64,000 bases of DNA from Cyclobacteriaceae bacterium (lineage in GTDB: Bacteria; Bacteroidota; Bacteroidia; Cytophagales; Cyclobacteriaceae): contig JAGDZP010000009.1 of NCBI GenBank assembly GCA_049115735.1, positions 36,355 through 100,354 of the forward strand. The letters run 5' to 3'. The position numbers and the translations under genes are program-made. Under the pieces are notes generated by a model that was given only the letters and a program-made list of their open reading frames with translations, was not told where the DNA came from and ran no database searches. This document shows, one piece after another, positions 8,609 through 20,320 of this stretch. Position 1 is the stretch's first letter. Each line of letters begins with the position of its first letter.

Positions 8609-10042
8609 ATGCTTAAATTCCAATACTCTAATGCTGCCTTTTCATACAAGGGAAAAACCGTTGTTTCGGGAGTTAGTTTTGAAGTTGGTGACGGAGTGCA
8701 CATAGGCATTACCGGAAAGGTAGGAAGTGGTAAGACGATGCTTCTGAAAAGTTTAACAGGTATTCTTCCTTTGAAAGAAGGTGAACGATATTTTGAGCAT
8801 GAAGGAAAGGAAATATCAGCCTATGATTTCTCCCTTCTTACAGAATTAGTTGAGTTTTCAGAGCAGAATAAATTCTTCAAGCCAGGGTCTCATTTCTACC
8901 AGCAGCGTTATCAATCTTTAGAAGATGATGAATCCAGAAGCCTTTTAGTGAAAGATTACCTCGAAGCTCGTGGAATGGATTTGAAAGATGAATTCCATGC
9001 TACGATTTTGAGTAAGGGCAGGGTTGATCAGCTTTTTAATAGAAAGCTTATTCACATTTCCAGCGGTCAAAGAAAGCGCATGCAATTGTGTATTGCACTT
9101 TCTAAGAAGCCAAGGCTATTGCTTTTAGATCACCCATATACCGGCATAGATCAGACTACCAGGATAGAACTTGATGAGTGGCTCAACGAGATGTCCGAGT
9201 CGTTTGGGATTCAATTGGTCATTGCGGCTAATGAAAGTGAGCTTCCTTCTTTTGTGAAGAATAAGTTGGTGGTTGGAAGCAAAGGAGATTCGTACGGTGA
9301 TGATCCACAAAATCGGCTGGACCAACTGATTGAAGCCCTTCAACATAAATCTGCTGCAACCTTCAACAGTGCGATAAACATGCAGGGTGTAAACCTCGGC
9401 TATAATAATGTAGAGATCCTTCAGGGCCTGGATTGGCAAGTAGACAAAGGCGATAGGGTAGGCATGAAGGGAGAAAATGGCTCAGGTAAGTCTTCGCTTC
9501 TGAGCCTGGTATACGGCGATAATCCTCTGGCTTATAATAAGGAAATTTATTTATTTGATAAAAAGCGCGGTACAGGAGAGAGTATTTGGGACATTAAGAG
9601 AAATATTGGTTTTGTGTCTTCTGAATTCCACCTCTACATGAGTGATCACATTACCTGTGAGAAGCTCATCGGAACAGGCTATTTCGACCAACTATTTATA
9701 CCCAGAAAATTAAATGAAAAGGAACTCCAGCGCATTGACCTTTTCCTGACTTACTTTGGGGTGATGAGTCTCAAGAGCAGGTACTTTCATGAAATCTCAA
9801 TAGGAGAGCAGCGACTAATTCTTCTCATTCGGGCATTGATCAAAAATCCTCCTTTGCTGTTGCTAGATGAACCCTACCATTGCTTTGATGACGACACCAT
9901 AGAAAAGGCCAATACACTGATTGAGACTTTGATCAATACTTTTCAGAGTACCTTGGTCTTCATCAGTCATAGCGAGGAAGTATTTCCTAAGTCTATCAAC
10001 AAGCGATTTGAACTTATCGATGGTAGGCTCAAATCAATTTGA
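8609..10042 (+). CDS. Tandem-domain ABC ATPase without a membrane domain, ModF-like
   Basis: Two Walker A motifs (GKVGSGKT, GENGSGKS) and two signature-like motifs (SSGQRKRMQLCIAL, ISIGEQRLILLIRAL). 477 aa. No permease gene adjacent. Confidence 0.55.
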   Translation: MLKFQYSNAAFSYKGKTVVSGVSFEVGDGVHIGITGKVGSGKTMLLKSLTGILPLKEGERYFEHEGKEISAYDFSLLTELVEFSEQNKFFKPGSHFYQQRYQSLEDDESRSLLVKDYLEARGMDLKDEFHATILSKGRVDQLFNRKLIHISSGQRKRMQLCIALSKKPRLLLLDHPYTGIDQTTRIELDEWLNEMSESFGIQLVIAANESELPSFVKNKLVVGSKGDSYGDDPQNRLDQLIEALQHKSAATFNSAINMQGVNLGYNNVEILQGLDWQVDKGDRVGMKGENGSGKSSLLSLVYGDNPLAYNKEIYLFDKKRGTGESIWDIKRNIGFVSSEFHLYMSDHITCEKLIGTGYFDQLFIPRKLNEKELQRIDLFLTYFGVMSLKSRYFHEISIGEQRLILLIRALIKNPPLLLLDEPYHCFDDDTIEKANTLIETLINTFQSTLVFISHSEEVFPKSINKRFELIDGRLKSI

Positions 10043-12472
10043 TCCACCACCAACATTACAATACCCCGAACCAATAGGAGATCCGTCTGGGATTTTTGGA
10101 ATCGATGATAATGGAATAGATTTCATTTTCTCTATTTGACCAATGAGGTATTTGTTGAAGATCAAGTTTTCAGAGTTCTCCGAGGTTTTCTGGCTAAGCA
10201 ACTCCTTGATTTCATCAAGCTTAAATTTTACGATAGCATTAACCTGTGGAAGGGTTTTATGGCTTTTAGCCAGGTGAATCATATGATTGATTATATTGAA
10301 TTGAATCAGGTTCTGAACCTCTTGCAAATATGGTTTAGAACTTACGGATAACTTAAATGTGGTGCTAACTATTTCGTCAATGACATCAATCAGCCCAATT
10401 TGACCAGGGTCAAGGCTCTTTTGCTGGATAAGTCTGGACGCTCTTTGCGGATGGAATATGAATCGGAGCGTGATATTACTTGCAGTAGAGGCTGCACTCA
10501 GAGCATCAAAAGAAACTCCTGTTCTACCTTTAAATGATTCTCTAGTTCTGCCATAGGCTATTGCTCTGGGAGGAAAGAGTGCAAGTTTGTTTTCTGGTAT
10601 GGCAAGAACTTCTGGAGACAAAGTTTTTAATATAGTTGATAGAGCTTGTTTCTGAGTAGTTACTTCCACAGGTTCAGATATGATCTGTCCATCACCTTTG
10701 ACAGCATAGTTGTAATCCATTCCACCAATCAGTTTAGCTACTGCTTCAGTTTGATATCTGTGTAGAAAGTATAACGGGACAAATAAATCTTCGAGGATTG
10801 AGTAGGGCTCATTGCTTCGAATATTATCTTCTGAAAAGTTAGCAATGGCAGCCTTGCGTATAGAAAGGAGATTATCTAACTCAGACGAAGCATCAATACC
10901 ATTGTCCCACAAGTGAGCATAAGCATGGGAACCACTGGCAGAGCGTGCATCGTTATCTGAAATGTATCTTAAGCCATCATCTTGAGCCTGAGTCAGGATT
11001 TTGTTCAGCTCAACTCGTTCGTTCTTATTTTCATCGAACTCAGCATAGGAATAGGCAACAGTCACTTTGTCCCATTTGCCCATGCCTGTATCATAGGCAT
11101 TAGAAAAATCAACTTCTCCATTTTTTAGGGATAATTTTGGATGTGGATAATCCATTACAGAAGCTCGGTTGTTCGCGCTAGAAGCAAAGTTGTGACTAAA
11201 GCCAAGGGTATGACCTACCTCGTGTGCTGAGAGTTGCCTTATCCTTGCCAGGGCCAGTTCTAGCATCGCTTGATTGTTATCATCTTGATTAGCAAAGGGT
11301 TTGTTCATAAGTGCCTGGGCAATCAAAAAGTCCTGACGAATCCGTAGACTCCCCAGGCTAACATGGCCTTTTATAATTTCTCCGGTTCGAGGATCGACAA
11401 CACCGTTTCCATAGCTCCAACCCCTGGTAGACCGGTGCACCCATTGAATAACATTATACCTCACATCCATTGGATCCGCATCATGTGGGAGTATTCTTAT
11501 CTGAAAAGCATCTTTATACCCTATGGATTCAAAAGCTTCATTCCACCAGGCAGCACCGTCAAGAAGGGCTGAGCGAATAGGTTCAGGTGTTCCATTATCC
11601 AAATAGTATACAATGGGCTCAATGGCTTCACTTATCGCGGCATTTGGATTCTTCTTTTTCAACCTATGTCTACCTATTACTCTTTTTACGATGGATTCTT
11701 CGACAGGAGCAGAGTAATCCATGTATGACAATGAGAATGAGCCACACCTGGGGTCAAATGCTCTGGGTTCATAGTTGTTATCTGGTAGCTCGATGAACGA
11801 ATGGTGCTCAACAACTGATACCAGGTTAGGATTGGGTGTTACTGACTTAATGTAGCCTCCCTTTGCTTTTCCACTAAATGTCAAAAGAGCTTCAAATTCA
11901 ACATTTTTTGGAAATGCTTTAGTCCGCGTCATTTCCAACGCACTTTTAGAAGGATCAAGTTCGTAATTCCCTTGATCAGCCTCTTTTAATGTATTGATAA
12001 CACCAAAAGTATCCTGAATTAGAAAGTCAGTGATATCAATTAGATGGGCATTTTTTTGACTTTCAAGAATGGGAAATCCAAATAAAACAGACTTGGCAAA
12101 AGCTTGTTCTACTGATAATTTTTCCAATGGATTATCAGAGCTTGCACGGAAATCCATATTTGGCTGGATCAAGAGTAACTTGTTTCCCGATTTTTGAAAG
12201 TAGACAATTTGAGTTTGCCCAAGCTTCCCTCTGTCTAAACCTAAATCATTGCTTCCAATCCCGCTACTCAGAGAATATATGTATATGAACTCCGTATTTA
12301 ATTTGTCTACTTCCAGGAAAATCCGATCCTCATATTCATGGTAGTAAAAGCTAAAGAATCCAGATTGTTTGTCAAGATTCTTAGTTGTCTCAAAAGATTG
12401 ACCATGTGAGAAATTCAATATCGACAAGGATATAAGGAAAAAGAAGGCTATTTTTTTCATAGTATGAGTCAA
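10034..12472 (-). CDS. Secreted zinc-dependent metalloprotease (zincin, HExxH) with a large N-terminal domain
   Basis: Signal peptide MKKIAFFFLISLSILNFSHGQ and HEVGHTLGFSHNF zincin motif. 812 aa. Confidence 0.7.
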   Translation of the reverse strand: MTHTMKKIAFFFLISLSILNFSHGQSFETTKNLDKQSGFFSFYYHEYEDRIFLEVDKLNTEFIYIYSLSSGIGSNDLGLDRGKLGQTQIVYFQKSGNKLLLIQPNMDFRASSDNPLEKLSVEQAFAKSVLFGFPILESQKNAHLIDITDFLIQDTFGVINTLKEADQGNYELDPSKSALEMTRTKAFPKNVEFEALLTFSGKAKGGYIKSVTPNPNLVSVVEHHSFIELPDNNYEPRAFDPRCGSFSLSYMDYSAPVEESIVKRVIGRHRLKKKNPNAAISEAIEPIVYYLDNGTPEPIRSALLDGAAWWNEAFESIGYKDAFQIRILPHDADPMDVRYNVIQWVHRSTRGWSYGNGVVDPRTGEIIKGHVSLGSLRIRQDFLIAQALMNKPFANQDDNNQAMLELALARIRQLSAHEVGHTLGFSHNFASSANNRASVMDYPHPKLSLKNGEVDFSNAYDTGMGKWDKVTVAYSYAEFDENKNERVELNKILTQAQDDGLRYISDNDARSASGSHAYAHLWDNGIDASSELDNLLSIRKAAIANFSEDNIRSNEPYSILEDLFVPLYFLHRYQTEAVAKLIGGMDYNYAVKGDGQIISEPVEVTTQKQALSTILKTLSPEVLAIPENKLALFPPRAIAYGRTRESFKGRTGVSFDALSAASTASNITLRFIFHPQRASRLIQQKSLDPGQIGLIDVIDEIVSTTFKLSVSSKPYLQEVQNLIQFNIINHMIHLAKSHKTLPQVNAIVKFKLDEIKELLSQKTSENSENLIFNKYLIGQIEKMKSIPLSSIPKIPDGSPIGSGYCNVGGGSN

Positions 12473-12675
12473 GAAGTGGTGAGAATTAAATCTACAGAAA
12501 AATGGCGAAATGAAATTCAGACATTCGGTAGAGGAATTGATTGATTTGGTGCATAATGGGCATACCCACTACCACGTAGTACAATACCGACTTTGGGGTA
12601 TTGGAAGATTTAAACTCGCTGACTAGATTTGAATTATGTTTGAACTTAAAATACAAAAAATAAATAATTAAGCGC

Positions 12676-14589
12676 ATGAAAACTTCTTACTTAAAACTTT
12701 CAGTAGTAGCCCTGGTGATCACTTTGATGTCTGGTCTGGCAAATGCTCAGGACGCCATGTGGCAACTTGATTTCGAAAAGGAAATTGTATTTAATGAGAA
12801 TACTGACACTGGTATTCTTTTGGTTGGCACCAGCGACTGGGTGCTTCATGGTATAGACACTCGTGATGGAAATAAGCTTTGGTCGAGTGAAATAATGAAT
12901 GGCGCAAAGCAGGTGAGAGGAGCAGATGGGAAGAAAGTGAATGCTCAACATGCTTTTGATAATTACATCAATATTTTAGAAGACCCGGATTACCCTGAAA
13001 TTTCTGACTTTGTGGAAATTAAGTACAAAGATGGAACAGGCTTATATAAGAATTATGCTGTAATCAACCTTCACACGGGTGAAGAAGTGATGAGCCCAAA
13101 GAAAGCTGAAATGCCTTCTATGAAGATGCTTGGAAAGGAAATGATTACTTTCAATTATAATGGTACAGGTTATGTACCCGCTCTACGAATGATAATTATT
13201 TCTGCGGGTTATGCTGACTTAAAAAATGGTGGAGAATGGGTGAATGTTACTAAAATGGTGGAACTGCCTAGTGCAAAAGTCATTTGGACAAGCAATGATG
13301 TTGCGGTTGATGGTTTCCCTTATGTTATGGAAAATGGTGACATTGTACTTCCGGGTCCTACTCAAATAGCAAGGCTGAATTCCAAAACTGGGGCGGTGAA
13401 ATGGTCTTACAACACAACAAATAAGAAGCAGTTCTTCGTGAGTTTTGACTTAAGTCTGGATTTAACTACTGGTTATTTCTTCGAGAAAAAGAAAAATAGC
13501 GGCGCATTGTCAGCAGTGGATATGGGGTCTGGAACAAAGAAATGGGAGCAAGAATTGAAGCTCAAAGAAGTACCTACTATGTCAGCGATGGGATACGGAG
13601 TTGTAACTATTGATTCGAAAAATTTCAAACTGTATGATTTGGAAAGTGGGTCTGTCAAATGGACTGCCAAGAAAATCGACGGTTATGTAGTAGATCTGGG
13701 AGATAAAGGAATAGCCGCAACATCTAAGGGTAAAAGATTGGTCTTGATGGATAAAGAAACAGGATCAATCATTTGGGATGAAAAAATCTCGGGAATTCAA
13801 ATTGATCAAATTGCTGCAAATGGAATTATGTATTCTGATGCGAAAGGTCGACTTGGTTATATTCAATATGATGGCCAAAAAATTTGGGATAAGAAAGGAA
13901 TGCTTGAAGTTCCTTCTCTAAGATACAAGCCAGAGTTCACCAAGGAAATCATGTTGATCGATGGTGATTTATATGAAATAGATTTGATGACTGGAGATTA
14001 TTCCGTTTTGAAAGCCAAATTAAATAGTGAATTCGGAGGTGGCAAAGATGCTGCTCCAACCAGCGTTGAATTAGTTGATGGTGGATACTTATTCACAGAC
14101 GCACAAAACCTTGTTATGCTTGAGACTGACGGGTCTGTTCGATTTAAGAATTACTGGGAAGCACCCGGCCTAAGCATGGCCGCAAAAATTGCCCTAAGAG
14201 TAGGTCAGGCAGCTGCCATTGCAATGGCTGCAAGTTCAGCCATGGAATCGAGCCGACATAGAGGGCCATACGGAGGAGATACTTATTATAGTAAAATGTA
14301 TGCTCAACAAGCAGACGATTGGGCCAATATCGCAGGTATGGCAGGAGCAGCTACTAAGCAGAAGTTTAGTGCAACAGTGTCCAAAGGAAATATCAGGATG
14401 ATCCTTACCAGAGTCGGTGAGGGTGGACAAGGAAAAAGTTCTGGTATTGTGAAAGTAGACAAGAGGACCGGTGAAGAGCTTGGATCTTTGCTGCTAGGAG
14501 ATAAAAAACCAGTATATGATTATGACCCAGTGTCTGGGCAGGTTTTCTTCAAGGCCGAAAATAAGACAATCATTAGCTACAGCTTATAA
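12676..14589 (+). CDS. Secreted protein with PQQ-like beta-propeller repeats
   Basis: Signal peptide (LANAQ) and repeated G-x-x-K/I-W-S/T motifs (GNKLWSS, GAVKWSY, GSVKWTA, GSIIWDE) as in BamB/PQQ propellers. Confidence 0.45.
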   Translation: MKTSYLKLSVVALVITLMSGLANAQDAMWQLDFEKEIVFNENTDTGILLVGTSDWVLHGIDTRDGNKLWSSEIMNGAKQVRGADGKKVNAQHAFDNYINILEDPDYPEISDFVEIKYKDGTGLYKNYAVINLHTGEEVMSPKKAEMPSMKMLGKEMITFNYNGTGYVPALRMIIISAGYADLKNGGEWVNVTKMVELPSAKVIWTSNDVAVDGFPYVMENGDIVLPGPTQIARLNSKTGAVKWSYNTTNKKQFFVSFDLSLDLTTGYFFEKKKNSGALSAVDMGSGTKKWEQELKLKEVPTMSAMGYGVVTIDSKNFKLYDLESGSVKWTAKKIDGYVVDLGDKGIAATSKGKRLVLMDKETGSIIWDEKISGIQIDQIAANGIMYSDAKGRLGYIQYDGQKIWDKKGMLEVPSLRYKPEFTKEIMLIDGDLYEIDLMTGDYSVLKAKLNSEFGGGKDAAPTSVELVDGGYLFTDAQNLVMLETDGSVRFKNYWEAPGLSMAAKIALRVGQAAAIAMAASSAMESSRHRGPYGGDTYYSKMYAQQADDWANIAGMAGAATKQKFSATVSKGNIRMILTRVGEGGQGKSSGIVKVDKRTGEELGSLLLGDKKPVYDYDPVSGQVFFKAENKTIISYSL

Positions 14590-14611: not shown

Positions 14612-14673
14612 TAAGTCCGTGGTTGGTGATATCAAGGTCATTAATGACTGTTGACCATCGATCACGGACTTAC
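14612..14673 (+). promoter_or_regulatory. Long perfect inverted repeat (10-bp arms TAAGTCCGTG/CACGGACTTA) enclosing a second palindrome GTCATTAATGAC, located between convergently unrelated genes
   Basis: Read directly from the sequence. No T-tract follows, so it could be a terminator-like hairpin or an operator for the downstream WD40-caspase gene. Confidence 0.4.
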
Positions 14674-14696: not shown

Positions 14697-17600
14697 ATGA
14701 ACAGACTTATATTATTATGCCTGATACCAGTCACACTCTTTGCTCAGCAAGCGGAACTTGTCATTCGTCAGGGGCACAAAGAGGAGATCAATATGGTCAA
14801 ATATTCGCCCACAGGCGCACATATTTATTCAGCTAGTGATGATAAGAGCATCAAAATGTGGGACGTGAATACTGGTATTGACGTCAGTACATTTAATGCC
14901 CATGAAGCCGGAGTAAATTGTATAGATCTGTCCAAAGATGGTAAAACATTGATTTCAGGTGGAAAAGATGGAAAGATAATAATCTGGGACACCTCTACCG
15001 GGAATGTGCTAACCTCGATTGAGGGTCATGAGGGAAGTGTGAATACTGCCAAACTTTCGGCAGATGGCCAAATGATTGTGTCTGGAGGAGAGGATGAAAT
15101 AGTTCGATTATGGAATATTAATGGAGACAGTATAAAATCTGTCCGTGGATTTAGTGCTCCTATTACTAATCTCGCAATATCACCAGATGGTGAGAGAATA
15201 GTTACAGGAGGAGGCAAAAACAATGCTCCTGAAGTTAAGCTGATAGATACTGAAAAAGGTATGATCATAGCAGATGCTCTAGACAATGTAAAGGGGTCTG
15301 GAGCAGCTCTTGCTTATACTAAGGTGATCATGACAGGGTTTGCGGTGGTTGGCAATGTGGCAAATGGAAGGATAGGAAAGGGGATGACCACAATTTTTGT
15401 AATGAAATATTCTAATATAGAATTTACTAATGATGGGAAGAAGATACTCTTTTCAATGAACATCTATACACCGTTTATTGCAGCAAAGGGTGAAGAGGAA
15501 GATACGGGTAATGCAAGTGTCATGATAGCCTCACTTTCTGAAGATAGAAATCAATTTGCAGCTATGAAAAAACCAGTTCAGTGGCAATTGAATAACTCCA
15601 GAGGTGTAGCGGTTTACAATAAGGATCAAACAAAGGTTATAGTAAATGAAGCCAGATCAGTGGTTGTCTACGATGTGGCGGATGCTAATTTCCCTGAGGC
15701 TGGAAATAAAGAAGCCGTGAAATATGTACCACCGATTGTTCAGGAGATAAAAAACATCACCAAGAATACAAACTGGTTAGCTCTTTCACCAGATTATCGT
15801 ACAGTAGTCACTTCTGATGTTAACCGTGAAATGAAATTATATGACTTTGAATCTGGTAGAAAAATACGGGATTTACAAGGTTATGTGCAGCCTGCACTGG
15901 CTGTTGATGTTATGCCAGATGGCAAGCACATTTTGGTCGGTTCGGCAGATCGAAATATGACAATGTGGGATATTACCTCCGGTCAAATGGTTCGATCTTT
16001 TGAAAGAACACCCAACATCAATAGTATAGACATCTCAAAAAGTGGAAAAGGAATAGCAACAACCGAATTGAATTCCTTGTACCTAAAGGTATGGAATGTA
16101 ACATCTGGCAGGGTAACAAAGTCTCTAATGGAGAAAAAGGATGGAATGGATTGGATAAAATTCGATCCGAGTGATAACGATAAAGTCTGGACCCATACGA
16201 CAAGTGGAGAAACTAAAGAATGGTCATTGAGTGCCAGAAAAAACAAGAAATTAAAAGTGGATTACTCCACACTGGAGGACAAGTTCAAGACTGGAGACTT
16301 CAGTGTGACTTTTGATGCCTATGATTTAAGTGTAAAAAAAGGTGGTTCTGAACTTTTCTCAGATACTCAAAGTGGTATTATAACTGATGCAGTTTTCAGT
16401 AAAGACCTTAAACTTTTAATCACTACCAATGAAACAGGTGAAATAGCCTTATATGACCTGAACACAAAGAAAAGAGCAGCGACAATGGCACTTATTGGAG
16501 AAGGTGAATTTATAACCTTTACTCCTGACTTCTATTATACATCCTCCAAGGGAGCTGCTAAAGCGATAGCATTTAAAACATCGAATAAAATTTTGCCTGT
16601 TGAGCAATTGGAGTTGAAGTATAACAGACCGGATTTAGTTGTAAGCCGAATTGGATATGCTTCCCTCAAATTGATTGCTTCGTACAAAGCGGCTTATGAA
16701 AGAAGGATCAAACGACTGGGTTTTAGCGAGTCAGATCTGACAAACAACCTTGAAGTGCCAGAAGTTTCGATAAATGCTTCGGCACTCCCTTTAGAAACAG
16801 ATCAAAGGCCAATTTCATTTACAATAAAAGCAAAGGACGCAAGCAGTACAATCAAAAGTTTACAAGTGTATGCTAATGATGTTCCGGTATTTGGCTCAAA
16901 AGGTATTGATGTATCTGGCCTGTCATCTAAGGAGGTTTCCAAAGATGTAACCTTCGATTTGTCAGCAGAATTGAATGAAATAAAAGTAACAGCAATAAAC
17001 GCGAAAGGACAAGAGTCTATCCCAGAGTTTTTCGAGATTCAGTATACGGCCGAATGGGACAAACCGGATCTTTATATTGTAGCTGTTGGAGTGTCTGAAT
17101 ATCAGCAATCCAATTACAACCTGGCTTTTGCAGCTAAAGACGCAAATGATATCATAAATACCCTAAAAGGATCCAGCGCTTATGGAAATGTCAATGTCAA
17201 GTTGATAACTAATGAACAGGCAACCTCAGACAATATTAAGTCTATTAGATCATTTGTTGAAAGTGCCAAGGTAGATGATGTCGTAATGATTTTTATTGCC
17301 GGTCATGGAGTATTGGACAATGACTACAACTATTATTTTGCAACGCATAATATAGATTTTAGCAACCCTGCCAATGGTGGTCTTCCGTATGGAGAGCTGG
17401 AAAGAATAATCGATGGATTGAATTGCCGCAATAAATTGTTAATGATGGATACCTGCCATTCGGGGGAACTTGACGATAATGACGTAGAGGAAGCTACGGC
17501 TCAAACAAAAGCCGTCGGGTCAGTGTCTTTCCGTTCAGCTGGAGCATTGGTTAAACTAAAAGAAAATAGTTTTGGACTTGAAAATACATTAGAGTTATCC

Positions 17601-17885
17601 AAAGCACTTTTTGGTGACATGAAGAAAGGAACTGGTGCGACTGTTATTTCTGCGGCAGGTGGAACTGAATTCGCCGCTGAAGGTGTAAATTCTTCTAATG
17701 GTTTGTTTACAGGTAGCTTTATCGAAGGAATAAAAACACGTTACGCTGATTGGAATCGCGACAGGGCTTACACTGTATCAGAAATGAGAAATTTCGTAAG
17801 TAAACAGGTAATAAAGAAAAGTAGAGGAAATCAGGTACCTACCTCCAGAGAAGAGAATATTAAAAATGATTTTAGGCTTTATTGA
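14697..17885 (+). CDS. Signal-peptide-bearing WD40 beta-propeller protein fused to a caspase-like (peptidase C14) domain
   Basis: N-terminal signal peptide (CLIPVTLFAQQ) and multiple WD40 units (GGKDGKIIIWDTSTG, IVRLWNINGD, MTMWDITSGQ, LKVWNVTSGR). The caspase domain shows the IFIAGHG (His-Gly) and MMDTCHSGE (Cys) catalytic dyad signatures. An Ig-like stretch lies before the caspase domain. Confidence 0.75.
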   Translation: MNRLILLCLIPVTLFAQQAELVIRQGHKEEINMVKYSPTGAHIYSASDDKSIKMWDVNTGIDVSTFNAHEAGVNCIDLSKDGKTLISGGKDGKIIIWDTSTGNVLTSIEGHEGSVNTAKLSADGQMIVSGGEDEIVRLWNINGDSIKSVRGFSAPITNLAISPDGERIVTGGGKNNAPEVKLIDTEKGMIIADALDNVKGSGAALAYTKVIMTGFAVVGNVANGRIGKGMTTIFVMKYSNIEFTNDGKKILFSMNIYTPFIAAKGEEEDTGNASVMIASLSEDRNQFAAMKKPVQWQLNNSRGVAVYNKDQTKVIVNEARSVVVYDVADANFPEAGNKEAVKYVPPIVQEIKNITKNTNWLALSPDYRTVVTSDVNREMKLYDFESGRKIRDLQGYVQPALAVDVMPDGKHILVGSADRNMTMWDITSGQMVRSFERTPNINSIDISKSGKGIATTELNSLYLKVWNVTSGRVTKSLMEKKDGMDWIKFDPSDNDKVWTHTTSGETKEWSLSARKNKKLKVDYSTLEDKFKTGDFSVTFDAYDLSVKKGGSELFSDTQSGIITDAVFSKDLKLLITTNETGEIALYDLNTKKRAATMALIGEGEFITFTPDFYYTSSKGAAKAIAFKTSNKILPVEQLELKYNRPDLVVSRIGYASLKLIASYKAAYERRIKRLGFSESDLTNNLEVPEVSINASALPLETDQRPISFTIKAKDASSTIKSLQVYANDVPVFGSKGIDVSGLSSKEVSKDVTFDLSAELNEIKVTAINAKGQESIPEFFEIQYTAEWDKPDLYIVAVGVSEYQQSNYNLAFAAKDANDIINTLKGSSAYGNVNVKLITNEQATSDNIKSIRSFVESAKVDDVVMIFIAGHGVLDNDYNYYFATHNIDFSNPANGGLPYGELERIIDGLNCRNKLLMMDTCHSGELDDNDVEEATAQTKAVGSVSFRSAGALVKLKENSFGLENTLELSKALFGDMKKGTGATVISAAGGTEFAAEGVNSSNGLFTGSFIEGIKTRYADWNRDRAYTVSEMRNFVSKQVIKKSRGNQVPTSREENIKNDFRLY

Positions 17886-17934: not shown

Positions 17935-18726
17935 ATGAAAGCGAGACTTCTATTATTGACTGTTTTGATTGCCGCAGCATTAGGCGCAAACGCACAGACC
18001 TATACAGTCATTCACGCTATTGGTAAGATATACGAATCAAAGAGTGGGAAATACCTGACCAAAGGAATGAGGCTAAGCGAAAGTGCTGAGTTAAAATTTG
18101 AAACTTCAGGTGCAAAGGCCGCCGTGCTCAGCTCCAAGAGAGGGCGTTTTGTGATACAAGAGAAATCTAGTAGTTCATCTGGCCAGGGGGAATTAGCTTA
18201 TGCACTAGCTGCAGTACTTTCTCCAGCAAGAGGTCGATTGAGTACAAGGGCAGGGGGTATCAACAATCAGCTTGATTTTCAAAAGAAATTTGGGGAAGGA
18301 CCAGTTGCTATTGTAGGCGATGAATATAAAGTTGCTGTGTCTCCAACGGCCTATCCGATGAGCGACAACAAGTTTTTCTATGCGAGCTACTCGTACAATG
18401 GAGAGCCAATCAATAAGAAACTTTCGAGAGACGGGGATTCACTGGTTTTTGATGTACCTGCATTCTACTCAGTAGATGACAAGCCAATAGATCCTACAAC
18501 TACATCAGATACTAAACTGTTTTATTACAATGCTGGTGCGCAGGAGTCCACTCTTATTACAGCCTTGGAATTATCAATCATTACCAAGGACGATCTGAAG
18601 TCTATTGTAGAGAGTTTAGCTGATTTGCCTGCAGAAGAGAAGAAAAACTTTGTACTGGAGATCGTCACTGAGTTTTATGGCAAATGCTCTGATGATGATG
18701 TGGAAAAAGCCCTTAACAGCTTGTAA
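17935..18726 (+). CDS. Secreted hypothetical protein (263 aa)
   Basis: Signal peptide AALGANAQ. No recognisable motif. Co-directional with and tightly spaced after the WD40-caspase gene. Confidence 0.45.
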   Translation: MKARLLLLTVLIAAALGANAQTYTVIHAIGKIYESKSGKYLTKGMRLSESAELKFETSGAKAAVLSSKRGRFVIQEKSSSSSGQGELAYALAAVLSPARGRLSTRAGGINNQLDFQKKFGEGPVAIVGDEYKVAVSPTAYPMSDNKFFYASYSYNGEPINKKLSRDGDSLVFDVPAFYSVDDKPIDPTTTSDTKLFYYNAGAQESTLITALELSIITKDDLKSIVESLADLPAEEKKNFVLEIVTEFYGKCSDDDVEKALNSL

Positions 18727-18735
18727 ACTCAGTTT

Positions 18736-19134
18736 ATGTCTGATAGTTATATCATTGAGCAGGCTGTCAAGCTAAAAGAGGAAGGCTATGATTTTGGAAA
18801 GATCAGAGCTTACCTGAGCAATGCAGGCCACTCCAATGATGACATCAGTTCTGTTTTTAAAATCATGGATGAACGGGAAATTCATGATCTTCAATTCAAT
18901 CAGCGACTCAATACGGCAAGGGTGCAATTGATAGCCTCTCTTGTACTGACATGCGCCGGTGTGATATACAATTTGTACAGGTTTGGGCTAGAAGACAAAA
19001 TAGACTTTATCATATTATTGATACCCCTGTCAATTTTTGTCGCAGCATATTATTCCTTCAAGTCGATAAGGGCCAAAAGATATACTGCCAAAAGTATTCT
19101 ATTTGAAAACTTTGGAAGGAAACATAGGGAATAA
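18736..19134 (+). CDS. Small membrane protein with a cytoplasmic N-terminal helical domain and 2 TM
   Basis: 132 aa. Hydrophobic segments LIASLVLTCAGVIYNLY and FIILLIPLSIFVAAYY. 9-nt spacing from the previous gene. Confidence 0.4.
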   Translation: MSDSYIIEQAVKLKEEGYDFGKIRAYLSNAGHSNDDISSVFKIMDEREIHDLQFNQRLNTARVQLIASLVLTCAGVIYNLYRFGLEDKIDFIILLIPLSIFVAAYYSFKSIRAKRYTAKSILFENFGRKHRE

Positions 19135-19144
19135 ATAAGAGCGA

Positions 19145-20320
19145 ATGAAAATCAAAAAGATTTTTTTGGGAGTAGGGATTGTAGCTAATGCATTGATCAT
19201 GGTCTTCTTTGCTTTGTACCTAATGAAGCTGCCCTGGCTGGCTGGTGACGAAAAGTTCCTAATATGGAGTTCGTCGGCCATAAAGTTCAACAATAGGGAT
19301 ATGCCCAGCTCCGATGAGTTTGCTTTCATAAATACATCCTACGATCTCCAGCTAATAGACCGATTTGACGAGTTTGGCTTTCCTGTGGGCAATCAGGTGA
19401 TTACTGACAGGCAAAAACTGGGTATGCTAATGGACATACTTGCTTCAGGGGAGAAGAAACCGAAGTATGTTATATGTGATATTCACTTTGTGGATTCTAC
19501 AGATTTTGACAAGGAATTGCATGCTGCCTTGCGTAAGATGGACAACATCATACTCTCCTCTCATTTGAATGATAGCGGGATGGTAGATGTGCCTATTTTT
19601 AATGATATCAACAGAGGGCTATCAGATTATGTGATCGGAAGCATTTTCGATGGAGTGTATAAGTATCAGCTTTTTTATCAGGATACTTTGAAGCTTACTC
19701 CACTTAAGGTGCACGAGAAACTTTCTGGGGAAAAGGCAGAAATTATGGGGCCACTCGTGAAAATAGGTGATAGATGGACACTCAATAATTTTATCATGAA
19801 CTACAGGGTGGTGCAAAAGGATATATTAGATATGGAAGCCGGCTTCAATCCCGTTAGTCTTGGAGAGTTGCTGTTTTTGGAAGATAAGGACATACAGGAT
19901 TTTACGGCGGACAAAATAGTAGTGATAGGAGATTTCTTCGAAGCAGATATGCATGAGACACTTTTTGAAATCACCGCCGGGCCACTCATCCTTATCAATG
20001 CTTACCTCACGATCAAAGAGGGTGATGCTGTGGCAAACATTTGGTTCTTTTTCATTGTATTTGCCGTCTTTCTCTACTTAAGCTATATGGTATTTGTAGA
20101 GGGGGACTACATGGAAAAAAAGATAACCAAACTATTCGGCACGATAGCCATAGCTAAATACCTCGCAGGATTCGCAAGCTATATAACCATTCTGGCGCTA
20201 TTGTCGCTTCTTACTTTTTTCCTTTTCCACATACACCTAAATATCTTTTTCCTGGCAGTTGCATTTTACCTTATGGATAAGATTGTTGGATTTATTTACA
20301 GCAAAACCAAAAATTCGTAA
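19145..20320 (+). CDS. Membrane protein with CHASE2-like topology (N-terminal TM, ~270-aa extracytoplasmic domain, C-terminal 3-4 TM) and no output domain
   Basis: Topology read from hydrophobicity (IVANALIMVFFALYL, then a C-terminal TM cluster). The CHASE2 assignment is by architecture only. Confidence 0.35.
   Translation: MKIKKIFLGVGIVANALIMVFFALYLMKLPWLAGDEKFLIWSSSAIKFNNRDMPSSDEFAFINTSYDLQLIDRFDEFGFPVGNQVITDRQKLGMLMDILASGEKKPKYVICDIHFVDSTDFDKELHAALRKMDNIILSSHLNDSGMVDVPIFNDINRGLSDYVIGSIFDGVYKYQLFYQDTLKLTPLKVHEKLSGEKAEIMGPLVKIGDRWTLNNFIMNYRVVQKDILDMEAGFNPVSLGELLFLEDKDIQDFTADKIVVIGDFFEADMHETLFEITAGPLILINAYLTIKEGDAVANIWFFFIVFAVFLYLSYMVFVEGDYMEKKITKLFGTIAIAKYLAGFASYITILALLSLLTFFLFHIHLNIFFLAVAFYLMDKIVGFIYSKTKNS

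What the first reader, a model, noticed from the sequence alone, without database searches (positions are those of the whole stretch)
17935..20320. Three co-directional genes after the WD40-caspase: a candidate undescribed envelope module
The genes encode a secreted 263-aa protein, a 132-aa protein with a cytoplasmic helix plus 2 TM, and a 391-aa protein with CHASE2-like topology and no cytoplasmic output domain. They follow the caspase gene with 9-50 nt gaps, consistent with one operon. A stand-alone CHASE2-type sensor beside a secreted caspase looks like a sensor/effector arrangement. None of the three products has a recognisable catalytic motif, so the module is a plausible uncharacterised system: an envelope conflict, programmed-death or signalling module.
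Basis: inference. Interest (0 to 1): 0.8.

Follow-up and report, generated by a model that had tools for sequence, protein, structure and literature searches.

The report
Periplasmic caspase with output-less CHASE2 sensor

Summary
The three ORFs exist exactly as described (17935-18726, 18736-19134, 19145-20320, + strand; gaps 49, 9 and 10 nt).

- **Core pair.** P263 and the 391-aa CHASE2-only membrane protein are adjacent in 45 of 45 related genomic loci. They are also adjacent in 5 of 9 distant P263-family loci.
- **Upstream genes.** In the window's Cytophagales lineage the pair is preceded by the secreted WD40-orthocaspase and a PQQ/BamB-like propeller gene (39 of 45 loci).
- **Independent linkage.** Caspase, P263 and CHASE2 are also linked in other gene orders in distant lineages.
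- **P132.** This gene has no detectable homolog and is missing from every other locus. It is a lineage-specific insert.
- **Family assignments.** The 391-aa protein is a divergent CHASE2 (40 of 59 family members hit Pfam CHASE2). P263 founds a large unnamed Bacteroidota family (932 cluster representatives) with no Pfam match and no strong solved-fold match.
- **Two-component systems.** These flank the block in many lineages, but not in this window.

Most likely this is a periplasmic sensor-protease signalling module. A similar cluster was noted once without analysis, in Psychroflexus torquis.

The parts
12676..14589 (+). 637-aa secreted PQQ_2/BamB-like beta-propeller protein; first gene of the conserved block
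   Evidence: Pfam PQQ_2 scores 63.1 bits against a cut-off of 27.6. The BamB equivalog models score far below their cut-offs. The N-terminus is signal-like. The gene is present immediately upstream of the caspase in 39 of 45 loci. Bacteroidetes-type -7 boxes (TAnnTTTG) lie at 12624 and 12635, upstream of its ATG.
14612..14672 (+). Strong intercistronic RNA hairpin between the propeller gene and the caspase gene; probably an attenuator or partial terminator
   Evidence: MFE is -32.2 kcal/mol with z = -4.9 against 200 shuffles. A hairpin at the same position but with different sequence, often followed by a T-run, occurs in 27 of 38 loci at MFE <= -25 kcal/mol.
14697..17885 (+). 1062-aa secreted WD40-repeat orthocaspase; caspase domain covers roughly aa 790-1062, with catalytic His870 (nt 17304) and Cys920 (nt 17454)
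   Evidence: Pfam WD40 (E 1.5e-43) and Peptidase_C14 (E 2.7e-13) both match. The AGHG and DTCHSG motifs are invariant in the ortholog alignment. A hydrophobic N-terminus is present in 38 of 39 orthologs.
17935..18726 (+). P263: secreted protein founding a large unnamed family. It has an N-terminal small beta domain, a disordered linker, an Ig-like beta sandwich and a C-terminal helical domain
18223..18249 (+). Conserved P-x-[RK]-G-x-[LM]-S-T-R motif (PARGRLSTR, aa 97-105) inside the disordered linker of P263; candidate docking or cleavage site
   Evidence: pLDDT is below 50 for residues 95-108. The motif is present in 44 of 45 orthologs. Ser103 is nearly invariant and Arg105 invariant across 33 diverse family representatives.
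18736..19134 (+). P132: orphan 132-aa protein with two TM segments, inserted between P263 and CHASE2 in this genome only; not part of the conserved module
   Evidence: Its only match is itself. tblastn finds no hit in any fetched locus. No family match in Pfam, NCBIfam, PADLOC or PHROGs. The closest relatives carry 209-237 nt of unrelated non-coding spacer at this junction. Codon usage is coding-like.
19145..20320 (+). 391-aa CHASE2-only inner-membrane protein (TM1, periplasmic alpha/beta domain, three TM helices) with no cytoplasmic output domain

Best explanation
The locus encodes an extracytoplasmic sensor-protease module.

**Core (inferred).** P263 is a soluble periplasmic partner, and the CHASE2-only protein is a four-TM inner-membrane receptor. 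Their genes are almost always separated by only a few bases or overlap, so they probably form a complex.

**Lineage-specific arm (inferred).** In this Cytophagales lineage the pair is expressed together with a secreted WD40-orthocaspase and follows a secreted PQQ-type propeller gene. The propellers would capture a periplasmic or envelope protein. The caspase would cut it, or cut P263 itself, after a basic residue. The CHASE2-P263 complex would either read that proteolytic event or hold and gate the protease at the membrane.

**Output (inferred).** The CHASE2 protein has no cytoplasmic domain, so the signal must leave by contact between its TM bundle and a separately encoded histidine kinase. 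Such kinases are adjacent in many lineages but lie elsewhere, if present at all, in this genome.

**What is shown and what is not.** Shown here: gene content, topology, an intact catalytic dyad, conservation and linkage. Inferred: the physical complex, the protease substrate and the kinase coupling. P132 is a recent, genome-specific add-on and not a working part of the conserved system.
For: **Linkage of the pair**
- P263 and CHASE2 are adjacent in 45 of 45 genomic loci, with a median gap of about 4 nt.
- They are adjacent in 5 of 9 distant loci sampled through P263 alone: L049, L050, L052, L133 and L134.

**Linkage to the caspase**
- The caspase and propeller genes precede the pair in 39 of 45 loci.
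- The same caspase family is relinked to P263 and/or CHASE2 in other arrangements: L126 CHASE2->P263->caspase, L113 divergent, L072 and L135 next to P263 only, L133 with an extra gene in between.

**Extracytoplasmic location**
- All four conserved products have signal-like N-termini or a periplasmic domain.
- The caspase dyad is intact and invariant.
- Orthocaspases cleave after basic residues (PMC6426788).
- P263 carries a conserved Arg-containing motif in a disordered loop.

**Kinases next to the block**
- A periplasmic-TPR HisKA_3 kinase plus a LuxR-type regulator in 18 of 45 loci.
- LiaF/LytS/LytTR in L028 and L032.
- A 4-TM kinase plus regulator after CHASE2 in L050.
- A TPR-HisKA_2 kinase in L113.

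**Literature**
- Caspase-CHASE2 fusions exist (PMC3501461, PMC8195603).
- The one studied CHASE2 pathway responds to a protein signal (PMC13001267).
Against: - There is no experimental or structural evidence for any contact between the components.
- The window itself has no kinase or regulator ortholog within its 64 kb.
- About 70 caspase paralogs (36-48% identity) stand without P263 or CHASE2. L032 and L035 keep the pair without the protease genes. The protease arm is therefore dispensable for the pair.
- The conserved S-T-R motif persists in P263 relatives that have no caspase neighbour. This argues against its being specifically this caspase's cleavage site.
- A hairpin, a probable attenuator or terminator, separates the propeller gene from the rest. 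The block may therefore not be a single transcription unit.
- The adjacent two-component systems might simply regulate transcription of the block rather than receive its signal.
Confidence: 0.4

Rival explanations
1. P263 is a dedicated periplasmic inhibitor or chaperone of the caspase. Its exposed Arg-containing loop would act as a substrate-like reactive loop, keeping the protease silent in the periplasm. The CHASE2 protein would be an unrelated or merely co-regulated membrane protein.
For: The gene lies directly after the caspase gene. The S-T-R motif is conserved and disordered. A caspase sits next to a P263-like gene without CHASE2 in L072 and L135. Secreted Bacteroidota proteases with a downstream cognate inhibitor gene are known (potempins of Tannerella; my own knowledge, not tested here).
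Against: P263 is linked to CHASE2 far more tightly than to the caspase: 45 of 45 against 39 of 45 loci, and 5 of 9 against 2 of 9 in unbiased distant samples. Many family members have no protease nearby. Most caspase paralogs have no P263.
Confidence: 0.15
2. The block is a programmed-death, conflict or anti-phage system. The CHASE2 sensor would detect envelope attack and release the caspase to destroy envelope proteins.
For: Bacterial caspases, including caspase-CHASE2 fusions, occur in predicted conflict systems (PMC8195603). The caspase domain scores weakly against the PADLOC caspase model and the EACC1-type caspase model. The P. torquis cluster lies on a genomic island (PMC3914696).
Against: PADLOC gives no system-level match. 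The EACC1-type caspase score is 80 bits against a cut-off of 140. No NTPase, EACC or TRADD-N partner is present. The block is vertically inherited at a stable position between ordinary genes (bio operon, FtsK-LolA, ABC genes) across a whole lineage. There is no PHROG or mobile-element signal.
Confidence: 0.12
3. The block is a regulated nutrient-acquisition or envelope-maintenance unit. The two propeller proteins and the protease would process extracellular or periplasmic proteins. CHASE2-P263 would sense the resulting peptides and tune expression through the neighbouring two-component system.
For: Two-component systems sit directly upstream on the same strand in 18 loci. The periplasmic TPR sensor domains are suited to peptide or protein ligands. 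CHASE2 cyclases respond to a protein signal (PMC13001267). The organisms are marine polymer degraders.
Against: No transporter or TonB/Sus genes are conserved with the block. The caspase has no T9SS C-terminal domain for export beyond the periplasm. This reading overlaps the best explanation and is hard to separate from it by sequence alone.
Confidence: 0.2
4. One reading: P263, P132 and CHASE2 form a conserved three-gene module downstream of the caspase.
For: In this window the three genes are packed with 9-10 nt gaps, and P132 has coding-like codon usage.
Against: P132 is absent from all 45 genomic loci and all the metagenomic loci that carry the block. It has no detectable homolog anywhere.
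Confidence: 0.03

Closest known systems
Caspase-CHASE2 fusion proteins (Trichodesmium erythraeum metacaspase-CHASE2; EACC2-caspase-CHASE2 proteins)
   Same: They pair a caspase-fold protease with a CHASE2 sensor that has one TM helix before and three after the domain (PMC3501461, PMC2853523, PMC8195603).
   Different: In the fusions the caspase is on the cytoplasmic side of the same polypeptide. Here the caspase is a separate, secreted WD40 protein on the same side of the membrane as the CHASE2 domain. The CHASE2 protein has no cytoplasmic part. An extra secreted partner, P263, lies between the two genes.
Psychroflexus torquis genomic island 15 cluster (P700755_01235-01257)
   Same: It is a Bacteroidota cluster of signal-peptide-bearing WD40-metacaspases with a CHASE2 family protein and a LytTR regulator (PMC3914696). 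L028 and L032 here likewise have LiaF/LytS/LytTR upstream of the block.
   Different: It was only noted descriptively. It has four metacaspases in 35 kb on a mobile island. Whether it contains a P263 homolog or a PQQ propeller is unknown, and I could not read that genome.
LysM/FecR protein + CHASE2 histidine kinase operons (Burkholderia 'BiofilmReg', P. aeruginosa PA4035-like)
   Same: A secreted periplasmic protein is encoded immediately upstream of a CHASE2 membrane sensor, with a response regulator in the same operon (PMC5192318).
   Different: There the partner has LysM and FecR domains and the CHASE2 protein carries its own PAS-kinase output. P263 matches neither domain, and the CHASE2 protein here has no output domain.
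Nostoc punctiforme WD40 / CHASE2 / DUF928 gene cluster
   Same: It places WD40 proteins next to a CHASE2 sensor and a small secreted protein of unknown function (PMC5587647).
   Different: It is from a different phylum. The small protein is DUF928, not the P263 family. No caspase domain was reported in those WD40 proteins.
Sinorhizobium meliloti NsrA-CyaD1/CyaD2/CyaK pathway
   Same: It is the only functionally studied CHASE2 system. It senses a signal of protein nature through an accessory envelope protein (PMC13001267).
   Different: There CHASE2 is fused to an adenylate cyclase, the accessory protein is an outer-membrane beta-barrel, and no protease is involved.
Intramembrane-sensing histidine kinases with accessory membrane proteins (LiaFSR and BceRS-AB type; my own knowledge)
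   Same: A kinase without a sensor domain of its own relies on a separate membrane protein. L050 has CHASE2-only followed by a 4-TM kinase and a regulator.
   Different: No CHASE2 protein has been shown to act this way. In the window no kinase is adjacent.

Membership tests
CHASE2 domain (Pfam PF05226) | Significant match of the protein itself to the Pfam CHASE2 model | tested here: not met
   The window's 391-aa protein gives no Pfam hit at E <= 1 or E <= 10 (member 1).
CHASE2 domain (Pfam PF05226) | Homology to CHASE2 established through close relatives | tested here: met
   40 of 59 aligned family members (48-79% identical to the window protein) match PF05226, best E 1.5e-11. Precomputed PF05226 hits and NCBI's 'CHASE2 domain-containing protein' name appear.
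CHASE2 domain (Pfam PF05226) | Topology: one TM helix, an extracytoplasmic domain of about 250-300 aa, then three TM helices | tested here: met
   The AlphaFold2 model has helices 2-28, 299-317, 335-361 and 367-390, with an alpha/beta domain at 55-292. The hydropathy scan agrees.
CHASE2 receptors as originally defined (sensor fused to a kinase, cyclase or GGDEF/EAL output) | A cytoplasmic output domain after the last TM helix | tested here: not met
   The protein ends at residue 391, right after the last TM helix. The same holds across the family, whose members are 361-438 aa.
Orthocaspase / Peptidase_C14 | Pfam Peptidase_C14 above the gathering score, and a His-Cys catalytic dyad | tested here: met
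   50.6 bits against a cut-off of 21.4. His870 in AGHG and Cys920 in DTCHSG are invariant in 14 aligned orthologs.
Orthocaspase / Peptidase_C14 | Cleavage after Arg/Lys | not testable with these tools
   Inferred only from the metacaspase-type DxCHSG motif and from PMC6426788. It needs an enzyme assay.
EACC1-associated caspase (NCBIfam NF047832) | Score above the curated cut-off, and an EACC1 partner | tested here: not met
   80.1 bits against a cut-off of 140. No EACC1-type gene is in the block.
FecR-domain periplasmic partners of CHASE2 sensors | Match of P263 to Pfam FecR (PF04773), or a FecR-like fold | tested here: not met
BamB (outer-membrane assembly factor) | Score above the BamB equivalog cut-offs | tested here: not met
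   TIGR03300 scores 52.9 against 285.2 and NF008351 scores 42.4 against 423. Only the generic PQQ_2 propeller model passes.
Known anti-phage defence systems (PADLOC-DB) | Significant matches of the components to a defined system | tested here: not met
   Only generic caspase and HEAT-ARM hits for the caspase and a marginal Mem_03 hit (E 0.0027) for CHASE2. P263, P132 and the propeller give nothing.

The most novel reading that the evidence does not exclude
This would be an all-periplasmic, protease-gated receptor. The secreted orthocaspase would cut P263 at its conserved disordered S-T-R loop. The cleaved P263 would then act as the ligand that switches the output-less CHASE2 protein. CHASE2 would pass the signal through its TM bundle to a separately encoded kinase. 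That would identify a ligand type and a working mechanism for CHASE2, which has been without either since its description. It would also give bacterial caspases a signalling role outside the cytoplasm.
Probability: 0.12. Interest if true: 0.85.

Novelty: new variant of a known kind. Interest (0 to 1): 0.55.

Why it matters
Bacterial caspase homologs have few demonstrated functions.

This locus type offers a compact system in which a CHASE2 protein is stripped down to its sensor and membrane parts. It is always paired with one dedicated secreted partner from a large unnamed family. In several lineages it is tied to a secreted, apparently active caspase and to two-component systems.

The block occurs in cultured strains: Reichenbachiella faecimaris DSM 26133, R. 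carrageenanivorans and Ekhidna lutea DSM 19307. Questions such as what CHASE2 binds and what a periplasmic caspase does could therefore be tested directly. The practical correction for annotation is that the conserved unit is four genes, not the three flagged, and that the middle gene is an orphan.

Tried and rejected
- **Defence or phage origin.** PADLOC and PHROGs were negative.
- **Homologs of P132.** None in the 5.8-billion-protein search (which is limited by its word index), none by tblastn in any locus or in the window, and no family hit.
- **Metagenome scan with the diverse P263 alignment.** The caspase domain was used instead.
- **Two-component orthologs in the window.** None found.
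- **Sigma-70 promoter and terminator scan of the block.** Not informative for Bacteroidota, and the counts were near shuffle expectation.
- **The original CHASE2 paper.** It could not be read.
Full report
**Observation.** The window contains five co-directional genes on the + strand:
- a 637-aa protein (12676-14589);
- a 1062-aa WD40-caspase (14697-17885);
- the three flagged ORFs of 263 aa (17935-18726), 132 aa (18736-19134) and 391 aa (19145-20320).

The gaps are 107, 49, 9 and 10 nt. All three flagged ORFs score clearly as coding by in-frame against out-of-frame codon usage.
- P263 has a signal peptide.
- P132 has a soluble N-terminus plus two TM segments.
- The 391-aa protein has one TM helix, an alpha/beta ectodomain and three TM helices, with no cytoplasmic domain.

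The window is identical in these proteins to a Cyclobacteriaceae MAG (locus tags JXQ96_07825 and JXQ96_07830). Its closest named relatives are Reichenbachiella and Ekhidna, in the order Cytophagales.

**What the proteins are.** The caspase gene encodes N-terminal WD40 propellers and a C-terminal Peptidase_C14 domain that scores above Pfam's threshold. Its His870/Cys920 dyad sits in AGHG and DTCHSG motifs that are invariant in the 14 aligned orthologs. It has a signal-like N-terminus, as do 38 of 39 orthologs. The upstream 637-aa protein is a secreted PQQ_2-type propeller. It is not BamB by NCBIfam's cut-offs.

The 391-aa protein itself misses the Pfam CHASE2 model. However, 40 of 59 family members at 48-79% identity match it, best E 1.5e-11, and NCBI names the identical protein CHASE2 domain-containing. 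It is therefore a divergent CHASE2 protein reduced to the sensor and its membrane helices.

P263 has no Pfam, NCBIfam, PADLOC or PHROG match, either alone or across 55 relatives. A confident AlphaFold2 model (pLDDT 87.8) shows four parts:
- a small N-terminal beta domain;
- a disordered linker (residues 80-108);
- an Ig-like sandwich;
- a short helical C-terminal domain.

The disordered linker carries a P-x-[RK]-G-x-[LM]-S-T-R motif in 44 of 45 orthologs. Across 33 diverse family members its Ser is nearly invariant and its final Arg invariant. P132 has no detectable relative anywhere.

**Conservation.** A scan of one genome per species with a CHASE2-family alignment returned 45 loci, all from Cytophagales-type Bacteroidota apart from one contig binned as Calditrichota (L032). 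Mapping the window's genes onto them and clustering all ORFs gave these results:
- P263 and CHASE2 are adjacent in 45 of 45 loci, with a median gap of about 4 nt.
- The propeller and caspase genes are present in 39 of 45 loci.
- Of the remaining six, three are truncated contigs (L021, L024, L036), two truly lack the protease genes (L032, L035) and one is rearranged (L027).
- L028 counts among the 39 only through a truncated propeller fragment. Its caspase gene is split into two ORFs.

No locus has a P132 homolog. In the three nearest relatives the P263-CHASE2 junction holds 209-237 nt of unrelated non-coding sequence, some of it palindromic. P132 is therefore a recent insert at a junction that tolerates insertions. 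Genes downstream of CHASE2 and upstream of the propeller change from clade to clade.

**Is the caspase link more than shared ancestry?**

Nine distant P263 relatives (about 25-31% identity) were sampled without regard to their neighbours:
- Five are directly followed by a CHASE2-only homolog (hmmsearch E 1e-53 to 1e-96).
- Two sit next to a caspase of the same family. In L133 the order is WD40-caspase, an unknown gene, P263-like, CHASE2. In L135 (Phaeodactylibacter) the order is caspase, P263-like.
- One precedes a different receptor, Y_Y_Y-SpoIIE.
- Two have no relevant neighbour.

The reverse scan of metagenomes with the caspase domain returned 80 loci:
- Close orthologs keep the standard order.
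- About 70 paralogs at 36-48% identity stand alone.
- Three relink the components in new orders: L126 CHASE2->P263->caspase, L113 CHASE2->P263 divergent from the caspase, and L072 P263->caspase.

Linkage that survives rearrangement supports a functional tie among the three. The numbers also show that P263-CHASE2 is the obligate pair and the protease is an optional arm.

**Output side.** The CHASE2 protein cannot signal by itself. Two-component systems recur next to the block:
- a kinase with a periplasmic TPR domain, one TM helix and HisKA_3, plus a LuxR-type regulator, directly upstream and co-directional in 18 of 45 loci;
- LiaF, a LytS-type kinase and a LytTR regulator in L028 and L032;
- a 4-TM kinase and a regulator right after CHASE2 in L050;
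- a TPR-HisKA_2 kinase beside P263 in L113.

The window has none within its 64 kb.

**Transcription.** Bacteroidetes-type -7 boxes occur only upstream of the propeller gene. A strong hairpin follows the propeller stop codon (-32.2 kcal/mol, z -4.9). Hairpins of different sequence, often with T-runs, occupy the same position in 27 of 38 loci. This probably attenuates transcription into caspase-P263-(P132)-CHASE2. 'One operon' is therefore plausible, with unequal expression.

**Mechanism.** I favour a periplasmic sensor-protease signalling module (confidence 0.4). P263 and CHASE2 would form a membrane receptor complex. The secreted WD40-caspase and the propeller protein would supply or process a protein signal, or be held in check by the complex. 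Output would pass by TM contact to a separate kinase.

The conserved Arg-containing loop in P263 is a candidate cleavage or docking site, since orthocaspases cut after basic residues (PMC6426788). Its persistence in caspase-less contexts favours docking to CHASE2 or another partner.

The rivals are:
- P263 as a cognate caspase inhibitor (0.15);
- a nutrient- or envelope-processing unit under two-component control (0.2), which overlaps the favoured model;
- a death or defence system (0.12), which is weakened by stable vertical inheritance, the lack of PADLOC matches and the absence of NTPase partners;

**Comparison with known systems.** Caspase-CHASE2 fusions are published (PMC3501461, PMC2853523, PMC8195603). 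In those the caspase is cytoplasmic. Secreted partners encoded upstream of CHASE2 kinases are known as LysM-FecR proteins (PMC5192318). A WD40/CHASE2/DUF928 cluster was seen in Nostoc (PMC5587647). A cluster of secreted WD40-metacaspases with a CHASE2 protein and a LytTR regulator was noted, without analysis, in Psychroflexus torquis (PMC3914696). The only studied CHASE2 pathway senses a protein signal (PMC13001267).

What is new here:
- the split, wholly extracytoplasmic arrangement;
- the output-less CHASE2 as the constant element;
- the P263 family as its dedicated partner.

I rate it a new variant of a known kind, with interest 0.55.

Noticed in passing
window 14612-14672 (+), and the same position in L001-L045: A strong RNA hairpin lies immediately after the propeller gene's stop codon (-32.2 kcal/mol, z -4.9). 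Hairpins of unrelated sequence, often with T-runs, occupy the same position in 27 of 38 orthologous loci. They look like conserved-position attenuators or terminators inside the block.
   Followed up: partly
L002 9770-10000; L024 1005-1220; L001 9790-9997: In the window's nearest relatives the P263-CHASE2 junction holds 209-237 nt of mutually unrelated non-coding sequence. L002 and L024 contain GC-rich palindromes resembling REP elements. This is the site where the orphan P132 gene sits in the window, so the junction is an insertion hot spot.
   Followed up: partly
L133 7001-8293: A distant P263-family member (430 aa) carries an N-terminal extension of about five tandem, charged coiled-coil-like repeats (…AEAKRKxEEERQKAAELEAER…) ahead of the conserved P263 body.
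   Followed up: no
L027 1606-9188 and 14264-17290: Here polA sits directly upstream of P263-CHASE2. A TPR-CHAT protein (1089 aa) and a 6-TM histidine kinase lie further upstream. A WD40-caspase homolog lies about 3 kb downstream on the opposite strand. Two different caspase-fold proteases are thus in one neighbourhood.
   Followed up: partly
L028 6053-9159; L032 3188-4237; L043 10001-11169: These show signs of decay or loss. In L028 the propeller gene is truncated and the caspase gene split into two ORFs. The related L032 lacks both and has an extended 349-aa P263. In L043 the CHASE2 gene is interrupted near codon 192, by a frameshift or an assembly error.
   Followed up: no
L046/L047 8105-14145: A P263-family gene lies immediately upstream of a 1102-aa Y_Y_Y + SpoIIE (PP2C) transmembrane receptor. 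It is divergent from a 590-aa FGE-sulfatase-domain protein. The family can therefore partner with receptors other than CHASE2.
   Followed up: no
window 10034-12472 (-) and 8609-10042 (+): An 812-aa secreted protein with an HEVGH zinc-metalloprotease motif lies divergently upstream of the block. Its 3' end overlaps the convergent duplicated-ABC-ATPase gene by 9 nt. It is not conserved next to the block in other clades.
   Followed up: no
window 19145-20320 (protein residues 313-368): The TM and loop region of the CHASE2-only family keeps invariant polar residues (S313, D321, S354, H364, N366), alongside many invariant Asp/His/Glu residues in the ectodomain (D112, H140, D161, D263, D268, H270, E275). 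This suggests a conserved ligand or metal site and a functional membrane bundle.
   Followed up: no
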